Below, in pieces: positions 8,323-61,020 of a stretch of DNA of 64,000 bases; positions within the stretch are counted from its first letter, which is position 1, and the number at the start of each line of letters is the position of its first letter. The notes below the pieces were generated by a model. The model had not been told where the DNA came from. It saw nothing but the letters and a program-made list of their open reading frames with translations, and ran no database searches. The stretch comes from Lama glama (taxonomy: Eukaryota). The stretch covers positions 14,882,001 to 14,946,000 of the forward strand of contig CM052816.1 in NCBI GenBank assembly GCA_028534125.1, given 5' to 3'. The translations under genes were made by a program, and so were the position numbers.

Positions 8323-8550
8323 TGCTCTTTGCTTCATAGTTTTCTTCCAGGCCAGAGCAAAGGGTACTGTTTCTCTGCTATTCTGAGCCTAAATTCACCG
8401 AATTTTCAGGACAATTCAGAGCAGAAAGTGGTCCAGAAGTAGAAACTGGGCAGCCTAAGGGAGGCTGTTTTCAATCTGGCGGTGATGGAGGTTCTAAGCT
8501 TTTCCGCCTCGCGGGGTGGTGCGCGCTGCCCTTCTCTTCCAGACTGGTGA

Positions 8551-12618: not shown

Positions 12619-12637
12619 ACAGCGGCACCCAGAGGTC
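12619..12637 (-). promoter_or_regulatory. Intact CSE/CTCF element upstream of the gamma-B pseudogene
   Basis: ACAGCGGCACCCAGAGGTC in a small CpG-rich patch, about 270 bp from the decayed start. Confidence 0.8.
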
Positions 12638-18099: not shown

Positions 18100-18803
18100 A
18101 GTGGACAGCAAGTCCTCACTCCACTGATTTGGGTGTTTTAAAATCCACAGCATGGTTAGTTATAAATTCTTAGTTCGGCTCCAAATTGGATACAGCCTGG
18201 GGAGCATCCAGATGTCTCCAGAAAAAGGACGCTTTCCTCACGGACTCCCTATCTCTGGCAATCACCCGGAAGCCAAGGAGCTATCCGGCTTCATGGCGAT
18301 CCGGTAAAAGTTCTGGCTTAGCGGGGGCGGGCCGGAGAATCTACGTCTTTCTTGGTATTGTTTTCTCTAAATATTTCCAAACCAACGTTCTTCACGAGAG
18401 TATCATCTTCATCGCGTATAGCCAACTTCTCGCGAGACAAGTCACGCCGGATAGCGTATTTGTGCGTTGCGCCTGCGCGCGCCGGGGCAGTGAGCACTTC
18501 CGCCCGAGTTGTGCTGTCACTCATAGCCGCCTCCGGTTGCGTAGCGTTTTATTCTCCGCTGGGTCTGCAGCTCTGGACGGAGGTCTGCTGAGCTGCCGAG
18601 CTGCGCAGCTGAGGAGCTGCAGAATCTGGCTCTCGAAGCTGCGGATATCAGCGAGATTTCGTGTTGCCTGTCCTGAGCTGTTTCACTACTAATTAGTAGC
18701 GGATCGCTCCTGATTGCCGCGAGCCGGAAAGAACAAAGGAATCAAGAAGGAGACGCTCGGCCACGGGCCGCCTTGCTCCGGAGTGGCTTCTGCTCGCTCC
18801 TGT
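18100..18803 (-). pseudogene. Highly decayed gamma-B-like protocadherin exon 5' end underlying the TAF7 promoter
   Basis: Minus strand gives, with frameshifts, (ACA)GGAGCGAGC..., GPWPSVSFLIPLFFPARG, ATCCGCTAC (IRY), NLAD, EL..AE, IRDEDD..LEI.E, LSQN, DRE in Pcdh order; CSE 203 bp upstream. Confidence 0.55.
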
Positions 18804-19030
18804 CCGGAGAAACTGGATTTATAATCGTCACTGGATTGTAAGTACCCGAGGCGAAGAGAGCTCACTACGCCCCGCTTTTTGAATATCTTTGTTCCGGGAG
18901 AGTTGTGGATTGGGAGTGTCTGCTGGGCTTTAGCTTTGTGTGCCGAAAATCATTCCGTAGCAGCCGCCATTTGCTTTCCTGCTAGCTAGCTCTCTGCGTT
19001 GTCCTGCAGCGGCATCTAGAGGTTGGAACT
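18200..19030 (+). promoter_or_regulatory. TAF7 CpG-island promoter and non-coding first exon
   Basis: High CpG density; GC box 18323-18332, TCTCGCGAGA palindrome 18428-18437, NRF1-like TGCGCCTGCGC 18468-18478, ETS CACTTCCG 18495-18502, YY1-like GCCGCCATTTG 18963-18973. Confidence 0.8.
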
Positions 19031-19222
19031 TGGCATTGCAGCTAAGATTTAAATGGACTTAATTGAGTAAGGCAACGTGTCAGTAACGACTGGTATTCAG
19101 CCACAGCATACTTAGAAAGACTTGGGGCTTAATTTAAAATAGACGCTTAGCTGCTGTTGTACTTAGAACTGTTTGTAATTAAAATTCCAATTCATAGCGA
19201 ACTGGTCTTTCTGTTGAAATAG
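18838..19222 (+). other. Putative 5'UTR intron of TAF7
   Basis: Donor GTAAGT at 18838; acceptor ctttctgttgaaatAG at 19222 (alternative ttttAG at 19236). Confidence 0.55.
19006..19024 (-). promoter_or_regulatory. Pcdh-type CSE/CTCF element inside the TAF7 5' region
   Basis: GCAGCGGCATCTAGAGGTT, same orientation and pattern as the other CSEs; TTGCA module at 19036-19040. Confidence 0.75.
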
Positions 19223-19280
19223 GTGGAACTTTTTAGTGCAACAAGTGGTTACTAGAGAAGTGAGTCACCAAGAAATAAAG

Positions 19281-20330
19281 ATGAGTAAGAGCAAAGATGA
19301 TGCTCCTCATGAACTGGAGAGCCAATTTATCTTACGCCTTCCTCCAGAGTATGCCTCTACTGTGAGGCGAGCAGTACAGTCTGGCCATGTCAACCTGAAG
19401 GACAGACTGACAATTGAATTACACCCTGATGGGCGTCATGGAATCGTCAGAGTGGACCGGGTCCCACTGGCCTCAAAACTGGTGGATCTGCCGTGTGTTA
19501 TGGAAAGTTTGAAAACCATTGATAAGAAAACCTTTTACAAGACAGCTGATATCTGTCAGATGCTTGTCTCTACAGTTGATGGTGATCTCTATCCTCCTGT
19601 GGAGGAACCAGTTGCTACTGCTGATCCCAAAGCAAGCAAGAAAAAGGATAAGGACAAAGAGAAAAAATTTGTATGGAACCATGGAATTACTCTGCCTCTA
19701 AAAAATGTCCGAAAGAGAAGGTTCCGGAAGACAGCAAAGAAGAAGTATATTGAATCTCCAGATGTGGAAAAAGAAGTGAAGCGGTTGCTGAGCACAGATG
19801 CTGAAGCTGTCAGTACTCGTTGGGAAATAATTGCTGAAGATGAAACAAAAGAAACAGAAAATCAGGGCCTTGATATCGCTTCTCCAGGAATGTCTGGCCA
19901 CAGGCAGGGCCATGACTCATTAGAACATGATGAGCTTCGGGAGATATTCAATGACCTCAGCAGCAGCAGCGAAGATGAAGATGAGACACAGCATCAAGAT
20001 GAAGAAGATATAAACATCATCGACACTGAGGAAGATCTGGAAAGACAGCTACAGGACAAGCTAAATGAATCAGATGAACAGCACCAAGAAAACGAGGGAA
20101 CCAATCAGCTGGTTATGGGAATCCAGAAACAGATTGATAACATGAAAGGCAAGCTCCAGGAGACCCAGGACAGGGCAAAGCGACAGGAGGATCTCATCAT
20201 GAAAGTGGAAAACCTGGCTCTCAAGAACAGATTTCAGGCTGTGCTAGATGAACTGAAACAAAAGGAAGACCGAGAAAAGGAGCAGCTCAGCTCTCTGCAA
20301 GAAGAGCTAGAATCACTCCTAGAGAAGTGA
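19281..20330 (+). CDS. TAF7: TFIID subunit 7, uninterrupted CDS (349 aa), retrogene of TAF7L
   Basis: MSKSKDDAPHELESQFILRLP...LESLLEK; TAFII55 N-terminal domain, acidic region and C-terminal coiled coil; expected synteny. Confidence 0.97.
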   Translation: MSKSKDDAPHELESQFILRLPPEYASTVRRAVQSGHVNLKDRLTIELHPDGRHGIVRVDRVPLASKLVDLPCVMESLKTIDKKTFYKTADICQMLVSTVDGDLYPPVEEPVATADPKASKKKDKDKEKKFVWNHGITLPLKNVRKRRFRKTAKKKYIESPDVEKEVKRLLSTDAEAVSTRWEIIAEDETKETENQGLDIASPGMSGHRQGHDSLEHDELREIFNDLSSSSEDEDETQHQDEEDINIIDTEEDLERQLQDKLNESDEQHQENEGTNQLVMGIQKQIDNMKGKLQETQDRAKRQEDLIMKVENLALKNRFQAVLDELKQKEDREKEQLSSLQEELESLLEK

Positions 20331-21620: not shown

Positions 21621-24319
21621 TAAATAATTATTTGAATTAAAGAGTGATCAAAGTGGTAGGAAAGTGTATAAAGAACTGTGTTTTACATATGGTTGATTTC
21701 AGATTAATCATTCTAAATCAGTTTATAAATGACAGAAGCAGAGTTTGCTTCAAATTCATCTGCAGCATAAGTAAATTGAGTTGGTTTACTACTGTAGCTT
21801 TATTTTTGATTTATTTATGGCTTGGCTTTGCACTAATATTAAAACCTCCATAATGAAGAGTAAATATCTGTTACAATAAACTTCAAAAGAGAAAAGGTTA
21901 ACTGAAGAAGATTGGGATTCATTTCTCTTTAGGTAAATCTAGAGTTAGCAAAAAAGACTTTTTTCCCAGCTCCCTTGCCTGATGAGTATGATGTTCAGTT
22001 GGGCTGCAGTTTTCAGTATTTTTGAGTTGATGAACAGTTGAATTTTCTTTAATTAGTGTTTTAACATACAGGAATAAGAAGAGTAACTGAAAAATTTTAA
22101 GTAATGCAAAAATTTTGCAAAAAATACAAAGTAAAGTTGTCCCTTTCACACCAACTTTCCAGGGTAACTTTTTGAGATGTATTGGTCCAGGCCTTTACTT
22201 GGTGTACAATTAATTGTATACATATATATATAATTTTGTAAAGCAAAAAATATATATTGTTATAGATACTATTCTAAAACTTTTATCACTCAAAAATTTA
22301 TTACGAGTATCCTTCCATATTAGCACATAGATACTTCCTGCTATTTTTCATGATACAGATTTTTTTTTTCCCTTGATTTTATCCACTCCCCTATTGCTGG
22401 TCACTTACATTGTTCCATTTTAAATTTGCTATTACACAGAATGCTGCAATAAGCACATCAGTCTGGCTTCCATTTTGCATTATATCTATAGATTAGGTAA
22501 GTGGGATCTTTGTGTTCAGTTCAAAATGTCATAAAGCCTGACATTTTGAATTTGGAGAGCAAATGTTTATTTGAGATGAGGAATTTGGACAAATAGTGAC
22601 AATTCATGTCTTTGAAGGACTGTGTCTTGACCTCTTGCTTATCTTATTATCCAGTAAGAATTCTGTGTGAAAACAGACTAGGAAGACTGCCCACCAAACA
22701 TCAGCTATACTGGCCTTTCTGTACTTCAAATACCCAGGTCTTTCTCACTACAGAGCTTTATTTAGCATTTACAGTTCCCTTTTCCTGGAACAGTCTCCAT
22801 ATCCTCTCATGGCTAGCTTTTTGTTACTCAGGCCTCAGCTCAAACCTCACTTTCTCTGGTAATCCTACCTGGCCACTCAATCTAATTGCTAGGGAACATG
22901 TGATGTGGGTGTTCACATCTAGTCAAGGGTGGTGGTCTTCACTGAAAAGTTGGAAGTTCCTTTGCCATTATTTTCCATGTATGCTTGGGAGGACATGTGC
23001 TTAAATTCAAAACAGAAGCATAATTCTGGTTAGTTAGAATCGGGGAAAAAATGGTTTCAGATGTTTATGACTGCCCAGTGTCTTGGGCAGTGTTACAGTA
23101 TTTGCTGAAGTGTGTTCTCTCCAAGTCCAGCTGTTTAAATACACTTTATGGAACTCAATCTCTTTCTGTCACTATTTGTGCAACTATGTCCGACAATTCA
23201 ATGAAGGTAAAGACCATTTCCCTATTAATGCCCTACCTGGCCTTCATTATTAGTTTGGTTTCTCCAAAACATACATATATGAACTTAATGCAAAAGCATC
23301 TCTTGTGTGTGTTTTTAAAAAATTAACAATGAACCATATGTAATTAATTGACAGTAGTTAAAACTGAATGCTCCTCTAGAAAACTTGATAGGACCTCCAT
23401 AAGTATTAAAATATGATTTTCCCCCATTGACTTTCCTGAGGGTGATACCAAAACATTTTTAAAAATCCCTCAAATATGATACGAAGAATTTAACATTTTT
23501 TTTCTAGTTTAAAATGGTGCGTTGTTCTCACATATCTTTTCTCTATCAAAAAGCCTGCCAATATAACATAGTAAGCCCCAAAGACAAAGAATAGGAAATG
23601 AGACAACAGTGAATGAGAAATGTCAACCTGTTTTCAGAAGGGCAAAGCAGATGAAGAAATGATAATTGAGAAATCACAGAAAGTTACATGCTAAATGTCT
23701 GCAAGGGGGTATATGAAAGAGAGAGAGAGACACACCCACTTGATAAAGAAACTGTGAGACAATTTTTGCAGGCAAAGTTTCCAAGGAAGACGGAAGTGGG
23801 GCTGGAAACAGAATTCATTAAAGTGTGTTCACAGCTGGATGTGCAGGATCCCTATGTCACTCGAGGAAGCCAGGTAACTCTTACTTACCCATCCCACAGA
23901 TGGAAAGTTTATTTTCTGGATAAATTGAACCAAAGGCTCAAACTCAGAGAAGGCAGGTCCAGATGAAGGCTGGGATGTATAACATTAAACAAGGGGGTTA
24001 TGTGAAAATATGTTTTCTTTACTGCAGGATGTCACCCCTCTTACCCTATTTTGGTCTCATTAAATCAGTATCCAAAGCATACATCACCCCCAAACACACA
24101 CAAACAGAGTCAAGACTGTAAGATTATTCTCTGAAGAAACCATGTGAGCCCAGAGAAAAGAAATCCAAATACTGACATTTGGGTATTATCTACACAAAAG
24201 GCCTGGTCACTGTCTACCACTACACTAAAGTCTACCTATTGACAAACTACCCATGCACAATCTGCTTTTGGGTGCCACACTTTAAAATGTTAACTGGGAG
24301 CCAAAGAATCAGACAAGGA

Positions 24320-24910
24320 AAGCTTCCTGAATGGAAGAATCATTTCAGCACACCTGACCCCTTCCCCATTTTGTTTTTACCCCCAAGGTAAAATACCGCC
24401 TAGAGCTTAGAATGTAAACCTTAAGAAAATTCGTTCCAAAGCTGGAATTATAAGGATCTGGGAGAAAAAGGTGGAGGTAGGCTACAGCGGTACCCACAAT
24501 GATGCCCAAAACCACATCTTGCCTACTAGGCCTATAGTCATTGCTTCCCAGAATTGCTGCTGCATAAAGCTGTATGGCTCCTCAACAAGAACCATGAAGC
24601 GGCGCGAACAGAGCTCTGGAGCCACACAGCTCTCTTCTATCAAGTTTCTTAGCTCTATATAGATACGTTTCCCAACCCGATGGTACAAGGCCTTGTCCTA
24701 CCTCTGGAAATGATGGGGACTCTGCGTCCCACCAGCTCACAGGGATCTAGGCTCAGATCCTAGGCGCGTTGCCACGAAACAGCCTTTCTCTAGCTCCGTA
24801 GGCACCGAGTAGCGGATCTGCCGGCCTCGGGCCTCCTCCAGTGTCGCTAGGCGAGCAAAGGGCGAGACCCAGAGGGGCGCGGCGGGCCGGCACCTTTGCT
24901 GAGCCGCCAT
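24320..24910 (-). pseudogene. Truncated gamma-A-like protocadherin relic (signal peptide, EC1, part of EC2)
   Basis: MAAQQRCR...QIRYSVPTELEKGCFVA, then after frameshifts DLSLDPCELVGRRVPIISRGRT, KLDRRELCG, FMVLVEEP, GTNFLKVYILSSRRYFTL. Confidence 0.85.
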
Positions 24911-25154
24911 TCCTCTCGGGAAAGGATTAAGGGTTTTCTGATTCAAAGGAGCCACGTATTCTCATGTAAACCGCTCCCCTCTCCCCCCAGTAGTTTGTTT
25001 GTTTTCCCTATTTAAAACCTGTTTCTGAGGTTGACCCTTTGACCCCAGTCACGGTCAAACGGGAGCACCCCTCCCCCCCAGCCCCCGCCCAGTTTGATTT
25101 ACCGAGTAGGAAATGCGGGCGGTGGAGGGGCAGGCAGAATAGGAAAGCCGGTGA

Positions 25155-25173
25155 GTAGCGGCGCCTAGCGGTT
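25155..25173 (-). promoter_or_regulatory. CSE/CTCF element of the relic, head-to-head with SLC25A2
   Basis: GTAGCGGCGCCTAGCGGTT, 245 bp upstream of relic ATG 24910; TCGCA module at 25184-25188. Confidence 0.8.
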
Positions 25174-25300
25174 CCCGCCGAAGTCGCAAGAATTTATCGA
25201 ACAGCTTTCAACCGCTGGATTGTAGTCCATTAAAAATGTTTACCTAGTACGCGTCCCGGTCGGGGGCGCGGGGATGGCGGGCGGTGCCCGGCAGGCGGCG

Positions 25301-25352
25301 GGCGGGGCGGGGCGAGGAGGGGCGGGGCGGGGCGAGGAGGGGCGGGGCGGGG
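25301..25352 (+). repeat. 20-bp GC-box tandem repeat (about 2.6 copies)
   Basis: GGCGGGGCGGGGCGAGGAGG exact at 25301 and 25321, partial at 25341. Confidence 0.9.
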
Positions 25353-25530
25353 GCTTGGGCGCTGCGTCCGCGGGGCGCGTGGAAAGGCGCGCGCGGAGGA
25401 CGGCCTAGTCTGGGGTTAAGCGGCTTCTCCCGCGGGGGAGAGAGTCCAGAGTGGGCGGCGGGACATAAGACGCCCGTGTTAGGCTGCAGAGAGTGGCCTT
25501 TCCCGGGGACCAGCAGATCGGTGGGCGAAC

Positions 25531-26436
25531 ATGGAGTCCAATCCTGCCATCCAAGCCGCCATCGACCTCACCGCGGGGGCCCTCGGGGGCACAGCATGCG
25601 TCCTGACCGGGCAGCCCTTCGACACCATGAAAGTGAAGATGCAGACGTTCCCTGGCTTGTACAAGGGCCTCATCGACTGCTGCTTGAAGACGTACTCCCA
25701 AGTGGGCTTGCGGGGCTTCTACAAGGGGACGGGCCCAGCGCTGATGGCCTATGTCGCAGAGAACTCCGTCCTCTTTATGTGCTACGGCTTCTGCCAGCAG
25801 TTTGTGAGGAAAGTGGTTGGATTGGACAAGCAGGCAAAGTTGAGTGATCTGCAGACTGCGGCCGCGGGTTCCTTCGCCTCTGCGTTTGCCGCGCTGGCCC
25901 TGTGCCCCACTGAGCTTGTGAAGTGCCGGCTGCAGACCATGCACGAGATGGAGATGTCAGGGAGGATAGCAAAAAGCCATAATACAGTCTGGTCCGTCGT
26001 GAAGAGTATCCTTAGAAAGGATGGACCCTTGGGCTTCTACCGTGGACTTTCGAGCACTCTACTTCAAGAAGTACCGGGCTACTTCTTCTTCTTCGGTGGG
26101 TATGAACTGAGCCGATCATTTTTTGCTTCAGGAGGATCCAAAGATGAACTTGGCCCTGTTCCCTTGATGTTAAGTGGTGGTATTGCTGGAATTTGTCTTT
26201 GGCTTGTCATATACCCCGTGGATTGTATCAAATCCAGAATTCAGGTTCTTTCCATGTTTGGAAAACAGGCAGGATTTATCAGAACTCTTGTAAGTGTTGT
26301 GAAAAATGAAGGAGTAGCAACCTTATATTCTGGATTGAAAGCTACTTTGGTTCGAGCGTTCCCTGCCAATGGGTCACTGTTTTTGGCTTATGAATACAGC
26401 AGGAAGATGATGATGAGCCACTTTGAAGCATACTGA
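25531..26436 (+). CDS. SLC25A2: Mitochondrial ornithine carrier 2 (ORNT2/ORC2), intronless retrogene of SLC25A15, 301 aa
   Basis: Three carrier signatures ([24 protein letters not shown]); Q179 characteristic of ORC2; synteny next to TAF7. Confidence 0.96.
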
Positions 26437-26941
26437 AGTGTCTTGGTGAACTCTGATCCAAGTACACATCTTTGAGGACTACAGTTTATCTCACGGTTTC
26501 ATGGAGCACCGGACCAATGCGGAATTATTTTTGACTTCATGGAAATTTTGTTTTTGTCTTCTCTTCTTATACTCTAAATCTTAAACTTTATGGAAGCACT
26601 TCTATTTTATGTCATATAGTTTCTGCCTATAATTGTATTGAAATAGAAAAGTTGTTGCTCTTATGTTTAGTGGGATATCAGAGTGAGTGGGTGGCTCTAT
26701 GTACTTAATCTCAAAGGGTAAATATAGTTGTACCGGGACTTTTGCATAAATCTGCACATGTGTCTGCAGTTTGGTTGATTATGTGTTGTGAGTAAATCAC
26801 AGTTTGGTTCCATGTTTAATCTCATGTCCCCGTGAAAACAATTAACTATGATTCATGAAGATGGTTATAAATGATTGCTTAATCCATTCAAGATGTAGGG
26901 TCTCTTTAAAACTCTGCTTAACATGTGCACTATACTAGCCA

Positions 26942-26947
26942 ATTAAA
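26942..26947 (+). terminator. Possible SLC25A2 polyA signal
   Basis: ATTAAA followed by T/GT-rich sequence. Confidence 0.45.
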
Positions 26948-27019
26948 AGTTTTTAAAAAGTTTTTGTGTGTGTGAAAACCAAAATACCCATCTTGATTTT
27001 TTTTGCATCTACAGTGTTT

Positions 27020-27376
27020 ATTTTTTATTGATGTAACATTGTTTCATCTATACATTATTTTTCTACTGTATACCCTATAATGTACTCACCACCAAAAATA
27101 TATTTTTCATCCATCACCATAGAGTTGAGCCCCTTTATCCACTTTGCCCTCTTCCCATCCCTCTCCTCTGATAACCACAACTCTGTTCTGTGTAACTACA
27201 TGCTTGTTTTGTTTGGGTTGGGTTTGTTCATTTATTTTGGTTTTTGTTTGTTTTTCATATTCCAGATGAGTGAAATAATACGGTATTTGTCTTTCTCTGT
27301 CTGACTTACTTCACTTACCATAATTCCCTCAAGGTCCATCCGTGATGTTGCAAATGGCAGGATTTCATCTTTTTTC
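27020..27376 (-). mobile_element. L1 3' end fragment
   Basis: gagtgaaataatacggtatttgtctttctctgtctgacttacttcact...gttgcaaatggcaggatttcatc. Confidence 0.7.
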
Positions 27377-27599
27377 CCATCTAGATTTTAAAGAGAATAT
27401 ACCTACATTCTGATGTTGCTTCCACATTCTTGAGTTAAAGTTTCAGATGAGGCATCCTGAATTTCTCCAGGATCCTCTATTCTTAAAATTATGCTGTTCA
27501 TTTTCAAAGTGGGCTCATATTCCACACTCTTAGTTTAATGTGGCCTAGAGCATTAAGCCTTTGGGACATATCCTGGCCCTTATTGTACCAAGTTTCCTT

Positions 27600-38288: not shown

Positions 38289-41200
38289 TGTGATATTATG
38301 ATTTATAATAGGAAATATATGTTTGGTTTTTGTCCTTGGTTTCTGACACAGAGCTCCCGTGGAATTTCCTAAGTGGTGAGAGCAATAAAGGTGTCTCTTG
38401 TTATGTTAATGAGGTGATTTTGGGACCAGCACCTAAGGATGGGATGATGGTTGCCAGAAGAACCAACCATATGATTAGAGGGTTGGAACTTTCAGTCTCA
38501 TGCCTGCCCTCTGGGGAGGGAAGAGGGGCTAGAGATTAAGTTTAATCGCCAACGACCAATGATTTAATCAACCATGCCTGTGTAATGAAGCTGCCATAAA
38601 AACCCAAAAGGATAGGGCTCAGAGAGCTTCTGGGTGGGTGAACACATGGAGATTTGGGGAGAGTGGGACACTAGGAGAGGGCATGGAAGCTCTGTGCCCC
38701 TTTCCCCATATCTTGCTCTGTGCATCTTTTCCACCTGGCTGTTTCTGAGTTATGTCCTTCTATAATAAACCAGTAATTTAGTAAGTAAAATGTTTCTCTG
38801 AGTTCTGTGCTGCTCTAGCAAATTAACTGAACCCAAGGAGGTGGTCATGAGAACCTCTGATTTATAGTCAGGTGGTCAGAAGTACTGGTAGTAACCTGGG
38901 CTTGCCCCTGGTATCTGGAATCTAAGGGGGGTGGTCTTGGGAACCTCCAACCTGTAGACAGTTGGTCAGAAGCACAGGTAACAACTCGGGCTTGCAATTG
39001 GCATCTGAAGTTGTTGGGGGGAGCCGTCTAGTGGGACTGAGCCCTCAACCTATGGAATCTGATGCCATCTCTGGGTAGATGGTGTCAGAATTGAGCTGAA
39101 TTGGAGGATAACCACCTGGTATCAGAACAGTGCTTGTTGGAGGTGTGGAGGAAAAGCCCCTCTCCCTGCACTGAAATTGGGTGCTCAGAACACAAAAGAG
39201 TTGGTGTCAGTGAAGTGGGATTTGCTAGAATTAGCCCTGGCTTAGGGAAGCATGTGGTTTGGGAAGAGAAAGGATGAAAAGGTCAGGGGATGAAGAACCT
39301 TGGATTCCTGGGCCACACGGTCACCCAGGGTATGGAACAGCAGCTGTGCTGCAGTCAGTTACTAAAGGTAATAGTTACTAATAGAATTTAGAGATGAATC
39401 CAAATCCTGGGGAGCTGAATCACTGGGTATATAAGGAAGTGCAAAATAACAAGAAGCATGCCAAACATACAGTCCCTTGGTTATCGTTACCTGTAATAGC
39501 TAAACAGTAAAAGAGAATGCTGAGTTAGACCTGGATGCTGGTCCAAACTCAGATTTCAGTGAATCTGAGCTTGGGCTACTAGCCTCAAAGCTGTCCCCAT
39601 TGTAAAAATTGTGCAGGGACAACAGAAAGTACATCTAAGACCTCTGGTCACCAAGAAAGTAGTCAACATGGGGGAAGGACAAAACCAAGAAACTCCTGGA
39701 ACCAGGGTTATAAAGAAATTGTTACACTTTGTAGATCAGTATCATCAGCTTTCTGAAGAACCTTTACTGAAATGGATTGTGAGAGTAACTCATTTGGGGG
39801 CTATGTCTTTGGTTTTGAGTGCTGCAAAGTAGCACAGCATGTTTGAGCCCATGGCTCACTATGGAACAATCACAGTTGACAACATGTGATTCAGATACAC
39901 AGGAGGTTATTCCTAAGGGAACAGTCAGTCTGATGGACTGGATAAAAGTAAGGTTTGTTTACCCTGAGGGGACTGTTCATCTTCCCCCATGAATGCCAAG
40001 TGGAAGACTTCAGATGAAGCAGTTGATATGCTTCATATGCAAGCCAAGTGGGACTGGCTTTATGTTAACCAGCATATTTGGCCGCTGCCCAGGTCATGGT
40101 AAATTTTGTGGTTAAAGAGGCCCCTTTCACATGGGCATCCCGTATAATCCTATCGTTGCAAAATCAAAAAACAGTTCGGGAAACCTCACCAAATTTGTTG
40201 TCTCTGCTTCTCCTCACTGGGCCTTACAGATGCTAATAAAAACATTAAGTTAATTAACAAGAGAATAGGAGAGGCCAAGGGTGGAGTCACAGGACTCTTT
40301 ACAACAATGTGGAAAGTTTTACACTGTTATTAGGGAATAAGATGAATGAAGTGAGTATTGATAGGAGCAAACAAAGAGGAAACAGAAGAAAAAGAGTCAC
40401 AGGACTCATCCCAGCAGGGAAAAAATCCTTAGATGGTTATTAAAAAATGGGATGAATGAAATGGACACTGATGGGGTTAAAACAAAAGTTTTAATACAGC
40501 ACTACCTAAGGTTGGTTGGGCCAAAGGGACCTCCTCATTGGTCTCCTAACATTAAAGGGCCCCAAACAAATCTACTCTATTTACCCGTTTGAAGAAATTT
40601 AAAAAGTCAGAAGGTAGAAATTACAGTGAGAAACCTGACCAGCAATCATATGGGGCAATGGCAGGCAAATTTACAAGACTGACAAAAGGGCCAGTGTCCC
40701 TTGGCTCGACTCCTCACCAGGGACCCGAAGTCTTTTGCACTGGAGTGGGCAAAATGGTCAGGGACTGGAGAAGAGAAGTTTCCAGGACTCAACTGTGGTA
40801 CCAAATTACCCATTGGTGAAGCCCCAACTCAGGTTACAATTAGATTAAGATTATTTCAAAACGTAATCGTTGATAGGGTTACAAAAGTTGGAATTATGTG
40901 CTATGTAAAGACTTGTGTTAACTTTACCTGAATGTTTTATAGGAATGTATATTACGTACGGCTGAGGAATAATTCCTTTACCTAGTATTGTAAAATTAAA
41001 ACCTGTGGATGCAGTCCTACTAGAGTCTACACTAGGAACATGTAAGTTCCTGGAATTACAGTAAAAATTTATAGGAGAATTGGTATGTTTGAACAGGCTT
41101 TATGTGAAGTGGTTGCATCTCTTTTACCAGATTGTATTTTGAGAATGGACACTGTATCTGACAGAGAACATTTCTCCTACCTAGAATTACAAAACAGAAG

Positions 41201-56484: not shown

Positions 56485-58793
<2,309 letters not shown>

Positions 58794-61001: not shown

Positions 61002-61020
61002 GTAGCGCCGTCAAGCGTCC
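61002..61020 (-). promoter_or_regulatory. CSE-like element of the beta relic
   Basis: GTAGCGCCGTCAAGCGTCC. Confidence 0.7.

What the first reader, a model, noticed from the sequence alone, without database searches (positions are those of the whole stretch)
24320..25531. SLC25A2 sits head-to-head with a gamma-A relic and shares its CSE/CpG island
Seen: a clear gamma-A-like relic (ATG 24910), an intact CSE at 25155-25173, and the SLC25A2 ATG only about 360 bp away on the opposite strand. The relic 5' end stays CpG-rich although its reading frame is ruined. This is the same geometry as at TAF7, so two independent retrogenes each lie just upstream of, and antisense to, a dead Pcdh promoter. Inference: Pcdh variable promoters acted as promoter donors for retrogenes.
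Basis: partly seen in the sequence, partly recalled or inferred. Interest (0 to 1): 0.75.

Follow-up and report, generated by a model that had tools for sequence, protein, structure and literature searches.

The report
Retrogene beside a dead protocadherin promoter
The ornithine-carrier gene copy SLC25A2 sits back-to-back with the remains of a dead protocadherin gene, but the CpG-richest part of their joint promoter island lies outside the protocadherin part and partly came with the gene copy, so borrowing of the protocadherin promoter is possible but not shown.

Summary
The anatomy is real. The minus strand holds a broken gamma-A-type protocadherin exon (ATG 24910; 71-74% identical to the window's two gamma-A exons over 128 nt). 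Its CSE/CGCT box lies 250 bp upstream, and SLC25A2 starts 371 bp beyond that on the plus strand, all in one CpG island.

The 'promoter donor' reading is only partly supported:
(1) The CpG-densest block (25246-25460; 81% GC, 8 GC boxes) lies on the far side of the CSE, where the six other CSE-like sites are AT-rich.
(2) The 69 nt before the ATG are the parent SLC25A15's 5' leader; weaker homology runs further up.
(3) Two other dead units keep their CSE with no retrogene beside them.
(4) TAF7's geometry differs: its CSE lies inside the leader.

Best reading: a fused island. The retrocopy brought its own GC-rich leader/core promoter and landed about 85 bp upstream of a protocadherin CSE, which gave open germline chromatin at most. 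In favour of a link: both retrogenes lie within 400 bp upstream of a CSE (naive chance about 0.0005). The start site is unmapped. The scan noted the TAF7 half on this window, and nothing on other DNA.

The parts
24350..24910 (-). Broken gamma-A-type protocadherin variable exon (signal peptide, EC1, start of EC2); stop after 57 codons, then frameshifts
24911..25150 (-). Relic's leader between CSE and ATG; 54% GC, 10 CpG; faint likeness to the leader of the gamma-A gene at 860 (z 2.2), none to the one at 8337
25151..25171 (-). CSE-like site with CGCT box at 25160-25157, same orientation as the cluster's other CSEs; presumed CTCF site
   Evidence: rank 5 of 127,960; 1 of 2000 shuffles; CSE as CTCF site from PMC6881428, PMC7811963 passages
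25223..25242 (+). Left copy of a 20-nt imperfect direct repeat (16 of 20) in the AT-rich spacer, ending just before the GC block; candidate target-site duplication, not canonical
   Evidence: 2 of 200 shuffles at length 20; not significant at lengths 12 and 15
25246..25460 (+). GC-box block: 81% GC, 35 CpG, 8 GGGCGG, a 20-nt tandem unit at 25300-25359; likely SLC25A2 core promoter/5' leader; weak homology to GC-rich SLC25A15 first-exon sequence
25462..25530 (+). Parent-derived 5' leader: the 69 nt shared by differently starting SLC25A15 isoforms (inferred exon-2 UTR)
   Evidence: 0 of 300 shuffles for 7 of 12 parent-type extensions
25531..26436 (+). SLC25A2 (ORNT2) intronless ORF, 301 aa, mitochondrial carrier
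26936..26955 (+). Right copy of the 20-nt repeat; contains the only AATAAA/ATTAAA hexamer between the stop and 27400 (ATTAAA at 26942)
24581..26120 (.). Composite CpG island: relic 5' exon + leader + CSE + GC block + first half of the SLC25A2 ORF

Best explanation
A fused island. A spliced SLC25A15 mRNA, with its GC-rich 5' leader, was retrocopied and inserted antisense about 70-85 bp upstream of the CSE of a gamma-A protocadherin unit. The copy's own GC-box/CpG block (25246-25460) is the core promoter, and SLC25A2 most likely starts inside it, about 100-300 bp from the CSE. The protocadherin promoter supplied, at most, an open, unmethylated, CTCF-bound setting in germ and early embryonic cells that favoured insertion or early expression. 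The protocadherin gene died (order of events unknown). Its 5' end stays CpG-rich because it lies in the same germline-unmethylated island, and its CSE persists as other dead units' CSEs do, probably as one of the cluster's tandem CTCF sites. In body cells the island is methylated like a germline-gene island. SHOWN: anatomy, parent origin of the last 69 nt, asymmetry around the CSE. INFERRED: parent origin of the GC block, start site, CTCF binding, germline state, order of events.
For: At 100-350 bp upstream of the CGCT box, 6 of 6 other CSE-like sites have 29-38% GC and 1-3 CpG; this one has 78% GC and 35 CpG. The block shows no likeness to the DNA upstream of either gamma-A gene (z 1.3 and -2.1). 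GC boxes: 8 in the block, 0 in 1-kb stretches at four other protocadherin promoters, 2 at TAF7. Parent leader at 25462-25530: 7 of 12 extensions beat all 300 shuffles, four more p 0.007-0.033, one p 0.27. The window has no pyrimidine tract/AG at the inferred junction, and reads Ala-Ala-Gly there like the langur and vole isoforms. Above the junction, vole P0195 (13 of 600 shuffles), Psammomys P0156 (8 of 600) and langur P0154 (43 of 600) align over their full length, the vole one up to about 25294. A candidate duplication brackets 25243-26935. Dead units at 12624 (matrix score 22.2, above the relic's 18.1) and 61007 keep a CSE and 15 and 8 CpG with no retrogene. Literature passages: the human SLC25A2 island is methylated in normal kidney and tumours alike, unlike the PCDH islands (PMC2776977); mouse Slc25a2 is shown as a DNMT3B-dependent island (PMC13138329 legend); SLC25A15 exon 1 is non-coding (PMC4358699).
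Against: Homology above the junction is weak and read from back-translated gene predictions. Ten upstream parts were tried; the four GC-rich ones were retested after I saw the first result, and one of them (macaque P0245) fails at full length (427 of 600). Low-complexity G-rich DNA inflates such scores. The direct repeat starts 9 nt before the A-run where a LINE-1 duplication should start (recalled rule), and only one of three lengths tested was significant. Parent-inherited promoters are rare (about 3%; PMC4772013). The two-for-two adjacency to CSEs argues that the protocadherin promoter did matter. The relic's 5' exon is better kept than those of the other dead units (19 CpG against 5 and 5 at 250-500 bp), which fits either direction of cause. 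No start site, expression or CTCF data for this species were obtained.
Confidence: 0.5

Rival explanations
1. True donor. The gamma-A promoter fires divergently; SLC25A2 starts just beyond the CSE (about 25200-25250), the GC block is only 5' leader, and CTCF at the CSE, perhaps with the cluster enhancers, is needed for expression. Selection on SLC25A2 then keeps the CSE and the relic's 5' end.
For: CSE only 85 bp from the GC block; both retrogenes within 400 bp upstream of a CSE, antisense (naive p 0.0003-0.0008). The relic's 5' part is nearly as like its paralogues (71-74%) as they are to each other (78%) while its 3' part has decayed (52-62% against 71%). Head-to-head borrowing is known for 11 of 230 human retrocopies (PMC4772013).
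Against: CSEs survive at dead units without retrogenes (12624, 61007). The GC-box block is a sufficient promoter type and is not protocadherin-like. The SLC25A2 island's methylation does not follow the PCDH islands (PMC2776977). A 20-kb transgene holding Slc25a2 and Taf7 raised Taf7 more than threefold and rescued its loss (PMC5179546; speaks to Taf7 only; that it lacks the cluster enhancers is my inference). The chance figure assumes random insertion and CSE survival independent of the retrogenes.
Confidence: 0.27
2. De novo core promoter. Only the last 70-90 nt came from the parent; the GC block arose in place from the protocadherin unit's upstream DNA by GC-rich drift and tandem duplication once transcription had begun, seeded by the neighbouring island.
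For: The block contains a tandem 20-nt unit whose duplication is not evident in the desman orthologue's translated upstream region (P0265). Parent homology above 25444 is marginal. About 86% of expressed retrocopies have novel promoters (PMC4772013).
Against: GC content changes abruptly at about 25246. Three rodent and primate SLC25A15 first-exon pieces align at p 0.01-0.07. The candidate duplication brackets the block. The desman region is collinear up to about 25229 (whole leader 0 of 300 shuffles; upstream part alone 16 of 300), so the block may be old.
Confidence: 0.13
3. Pure bystander. The copy carried a complete promoter and landed beside a CSE by chance or because AT-rich DNA upstream of these promoters is a good LINE-1 target. 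The CSE never influenced it and persists only for cluster architecture.
For: TT/AAAA motif at about 25230; seven CSE-like sites in 64 kb; each tandem CTCF site acts as an insulator for the cluster (10.1101/525543 passages).
Against: Two independent insertions next to CSEs are unlikely under random insertion; the island is continuous across the CSE.
Confidence: 0.1

Closest known systems
Retrocopies transcribed from a head-to-head neighbour's bidirectional promoter (Carelli 2016, PMC4772013; e.g. HTR7P1 from HEBP1)
   Same: Divergent layout within 2 kb, one shared CpG island
   Different: The neighbour is a dead protocadherin unit, not a protein-coding gene, and the CpG-densest part lies on the retrocopy's side and is not neighbour-like
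Retrocopies with parent-inherited promoters (Okamura and Nakai 2008, PMC2386082; Carelli 2016 class I)
   Same: Spliced parent leader carried along; GC-box/CpG block directly above it
   Different: Homology above the exon junction is weak, the start site is unmapped, and the copy abuts a foreign CTCF-type promoter
Clustered protocadherin variable promoters with a CSE/CGCT CTCF site (PMC6881428, PMC7811963)
   Same: Motif, orientation, 250-bp spacing to the ATG, CpG-rich downstream exon
   Different: Exon is dead; upstream side carries a 78% GC block found at no other unit in the window
Protocadherin-alpha antisense lncRNA promoter (as reviewed in PMC7811963)
   Same: Antisense transcription near a CSE; TAF7's layout (start inferred in the dead exon, reading through the CSE) resembles it
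   Different: SLC25A2 is predicted to start beyond the CSE and move away from it, so it would not read through it
CpG-rich intronless germline genes methylated in body cells (PMC3428356, seen in search listing only)
   Same: Intronless gene, island reaching into the ORF, somatic methylation reported for SLC25A2 in human and mouse
   Different: Germline state not tested here; ORNT2 mRNA is also reported at low level in liver and other organs (PMC4358699, PMC7764698)

Membership tests
Clustered protocadherin variable promoter (CSE) | [quoted passage not shown] | tested here: met
   250 bp against 219-253; rank 5 of 127,960; 1 of 2000 shuffles
Clustered protocadherin variable promoter (CSE) | Same orientation as the cluster, followed by a variable exon | tested here: met
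   Minus strand like the intact genes; broken gamma-A-type exon follows
Clustered protocadherin variable promoter (CSE) | Methylation-sensitive CTCF binding and enhancer looping | not testable with these tools
   No chromatin data available
Head-to-head promoter-sharing retrocopy (Carelli 2016) | Within 2 kb and divergent from another protein-coding gene | tested here: not met
   Divergent and 621 bp ATG to ATG, but the neighbour no longer codes; may have been met at insertion
Head-to-head promoter-sharing retrocopy (Carelli 2016) | Start site lies in the neighbour's promoter; the two are co-expressed | not testable with these tools
   No read-level start-site data obtained; one search lists holders only
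Parent-inherited-promoter retrocopy | Sequence upstream of the retrocopy's start site aligns to the parent locus | tested here: inconclusive
   Last 69 nt firm; above the junction 8, 13, 43 and 427 of 600 shuffles for four pieces; start site unknown; no parent DNA available (one search returned no mammal-level match, best segment 73% identical)
Retrogene | Intronless ORF and leader from a multi-exon parent | tested here: met
   Single ORF; parent has 7 exons (PMC4358699); leader homology
Retrogene | Target-site duplication and poly(A) remnant | tested here: inconclusive
   16 of 20 repeat, 2 of 200 shuffles at one of three lengths; non-canonical start; no clear A tail

The most novel reading that the evidence does not exclude
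Protocadherin variable promoters acted twice as landing pads and starter promoters for retrogenes, in two different ways. TAF7 took over a unit's island from inside its exon; SLC25A2 docked just upstream of a CSE and is still driven or tuned by that CTCF site. The insertions may have killed their host units, and the essential or germline retrogenes now preserve orphan CTCF sites that shape beta/gamma enhancer sharing. Deleting them would alter both SLC25A2 and protocadherin choice.
Probability: 0.22. Interest if true: 0.68.

Novelty: new member of a known kind. Interest (0 to 1): 0.4.

Why it matters
It gives a concrete, testable origin for the promoter of the back-up ornithine carrier (thought to soften HHH syndrome, PMC4358699), and a reason why two unrelated genes sit inside the protocadherin locus. 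It also points to orphan CSE-like sites between the beta and gamma clusters (12624, 19011, 25160, and 61007 among the beta units) that could count as insulators in enhancer-sharing models. If the CSE is only a neighbour, it is an ordinary retrogene with a tidy history.

Tried and rejected
No whole genome is held for this window, so the parent gene's DNA could not be compared. A metagenome scan with the SLC25A2 protein gave 50 loci, none at mammal-level identity (best segments 31-73%); not used.

No reads were laid, so start site, strand and relic transcription are open. One search listed 24 runs: 19 hold part of 24300-26500. Five RNA-labelled runs, from two studies of reproductive-system samples, hold 0.45-0.52 of its words. 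That is about the ORF plus up to 200 nt, but the held part was not located, so I use it only as a hint.

The first round of N-terminal extensions gave nothing above noise except the residues next to the ATG. Six of 10 parent upstream parts (P0160, P0197, P0244, P0251, P0253, P0259) showed no homology (p 0.43-1.0); I read them as other first exons or mispredictions, which is an assumption. CpG fate counts (6 kept/3 decayed/3 other and 3/2/2 in the 5' part) are too few to show slowed decay. The Pfam hit for the relic piece is below cut-off (E 0.098). The matrix hit at 39331 has no CpG and no exon: rejected as chance. A TAF7-side piece gave no protocadherin hit.

Literature: ten searches found no paper describing this relic, its CSE or the origin of the SLC25A2 promoter. 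Wu et al. 2001 is not held; I recall that it reports relics and both inserted genes. The supplement of PMC4772013, which classifies retrocopy promoters and may list SLC25A2, could not be read.

Full report
SETTING. The window is a mammalian protocadherin beta/gamma junction read on the minus strand. It holds two gamma-A-type exons (ATG at 860 and 8337; the first matches gamma-A PDB chains best), TAF7 (19281-20330, plus), SLC25A2 (25531-26436, plus) and a beta-type exon (ATG 58766; the beta label is my reading). The SLC25A2 protein falls in a 90% cluster with sheep, deer and whale ornithine transporter 2. Both inserted genes are absent from the anole cluster and so are mammalian insertions (PMC2764143, passage).

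THE RELIC IS REAL. From ATG 24910 the minus strand gives a decayed signal peptide and the start of EC1, a stop after 57 codons, and further pieces in other frames. DNA identity is 74% and 71% over 128 nt to the two gamma-A exons, against 78% between them; over the next 345 nt it is 62% and 52% against 71%. The beta exon scores far lower (48 against 112-124; shuffles at most 35). Two stop-free pieces hit only gamma-A-type structures in the PDB, though at E 0.6-1.7. No gamma-B exon lies in the window, so that comparison rests on the PDB searches.

THE CSE IS REAL AS SEQUENCE. A matrix from the three intact promoters ranks 25171-25151 fifth of 127,960 positions. The top three are the training sites and the fourth is an orphan at 12635. 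One of 2000 local shuffles reaches the score, and the spacing to the ATG (250 bp) matches 219-253 bp. That CSEs are methylation-sensitive CTCF sites comes from passages of PMC6881428 and PMC7811963; binding here is untested.

THE ISLAND IS COMPOSITE. Island windows run from 24581 to 26120. CpG per 100 bp: relic 5' exon 7.7, leader 4.2, CSE zone 8.4, block 25246-25460 16.3, first half of the ORF 6.0. Protocadherin units carry their CpG downstream of the CSE. At 100-350 bp upstream, 6 of 6 other CSE-like sites have 29-38% GC and 1-3 CpG; this one has 78% and 35. The block holds 8 GC boxes; 1-kb stretches at four other protocadherin promoters hold none. So the part that looks most like a core promoter is not protocadherin-like.

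PART OF IT CAME FROM THE PARENT. No parent DNA was available. I therefore used SLC25A15-type gene predictions whose N-terminal extensions translate the 5' leader. Extensions with different starts converge on a shared stretch of about 23 residues in primates and marsupials (about 20 in rodents), which I read as the exon-2 leader; exon 1 is non-coding per PMC4358699 (passage). A frameshift-tolerant back-translation profile places that stretch on 25462-25530: 7 of 12 extensions beat all 300 shuffles, four gave p 0.007-0.033 and one 0.27. The 12 are not independent: two come from one species and two are SLC25A15-like partial copies. Above the junction the window lacks a splice-acceptor tract and matches the Ala-Ala-Gly that ends the langur and vole pieces. 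Ten upstream parts were tested; six showed nothing. The four GC-rich ones, retested with 600 shuffles, gave 8, 13, 43 and 427 at full length. This is suggestive, chosen after the fact, and in low-complexity DNA. A 16-of-20 direct repeat at 25223-25242 and 26936-26955 brackets block, ORF and 3' UTR (2 of 200 shuffles at length 20; 135 and 60 of 200 at 12 and 15). It may be a worn target-site duplication but does not begin canonically. A desman orthologue's extension is collinear to about 25229 (0 of 300 overall; 16 of 300 without the last 20 residues).

CONTROLS WEAKEN 'KEPT BECAUSE USED'. Two dead units keep a CSE and nearby CpG with no retrogene. One is at 12624 (15 CpG in the next 250 bp; exon remnant at 11242-11006, E 6e-6). 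The other is at 61007 (8 CpG; beta-like remnant, score 51 against 28+-2). A further faint relic at 29.1-29.6 kb (E 0.004) shows no minus-strand CSE among the top 25 hits. The SLC25A2-side relic does keep more exon CpG (19 against 5 and 5), which fits protection by the retrogene's island as well as use by it.

TAF7 DIFFERS. Its CSE-like site (19011, rank 8) has the island on the exon side. Splice motifs suggest that TAF7 starts near 18500 and reads through the CSE in a leader intron (inference). That is overlapping antisense, whereas SLC25A2 is divergent. Still, both ATGs lie 270 and 371 bp upstream of a CSE, antisense. With seven CSE-like sites in the window, random placement gives 0.0003-0.0008, assuming CSE survival is independent of the inserts.

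EXPRESSION EVIDENCE. From passages only: the human SLC25A2 island is methylated in normal kidney and in tumours while PCDH islands change (PMC2776977). Mouse Slc25a2 is a DNMT3B-dependent island (PMC13138329, legend). A 20-kb transgene with Slc25a2 and Taf7 expresses Taf7 and rescues its loss (PMC5179546). A Pcdh-alpha duplication did not change Slc25a2 (PMC4151104). RNA runs from reproductive samples hold about half of 24300-26500, position not determined. The start site remains unmapped.

MECHANISM AND ODDS. Fused island with the copy's own core promoter and a permissive CSE neighbour 0.50; true donor 0.27; de novo block 0.13; pure bystander 0.10.

KNOWN KINDS AND NOVELTY. It works like a retrocopy with a CpG-island promoter. 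In PMC4772013 (passages) about 3% of expressed retrocopies inherit a promoter, about 11% piggyback on a neighbour (head-to-head or within a host gene) and about 86% gain a new one. PMC2386082 (passages) argues that parents with CpG islands often pass promoters on; neither main text names SLC25A2. PMC10100218, PMC7764698 and 10.1101/525543 were also read as passages. Ten searches found no description of this relic or CSE (listed under Tried and rejected). The unread Wu 2001 paper and the Carelli supplement may already contain parts of it. Verdict: a real and apparently little-noted arrangement, a new member of known kinds; interest 0.4.

Noticed in passing
window 12635-12615 (minus), remnants 12440-11000: Orphan CSE, the best non-training match in the window, with 15 CpG downstream and a heavily decayed protocadherin exon; no retrogene next to it.
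   Followed up: partly
window 61018-60998 (minus), remnant 60235-60124: Orphan CSE with a beta-like exon remnant upstream of the beta-type gene at 58766.
   Followed up: partly
window 29576-29117 (minus): Faint protocadherin EC1/EC2 remnant (tblastn E 0.004) with no CSE or CpG island seen.
   Followed up: partly
window 18380-19281: TAF7 leader: likely start near 18500, splice donor about 18838, acceptor about 19223, CSE-like site at 19011 inside the presumed intron; layout resembles the Pcdh-alpha antisense promoter.
   Followed up: partly
window 25300-25359: Tandem 20-nt GC-box unit; the duplication is not evident in the desman orthologue's translated leader.
   Followed up: partly
window 27014-27380: LINE-1-like 3' fragment just downstream of SLC25A2 (recognised from memory; part of it recurs elsewhere in the window).
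   Followed up: no
window 56772-57271: 500-base assembly gap inside the beta-type exon; the ORF listed across it is not reliable beyond the gap.
   Followed up: no
P0209-P0222: Horse records list many 'ornithine transporter 1-like' truncated products, hinting at SLC25A15 duplicates in equids.
   Followed up: no
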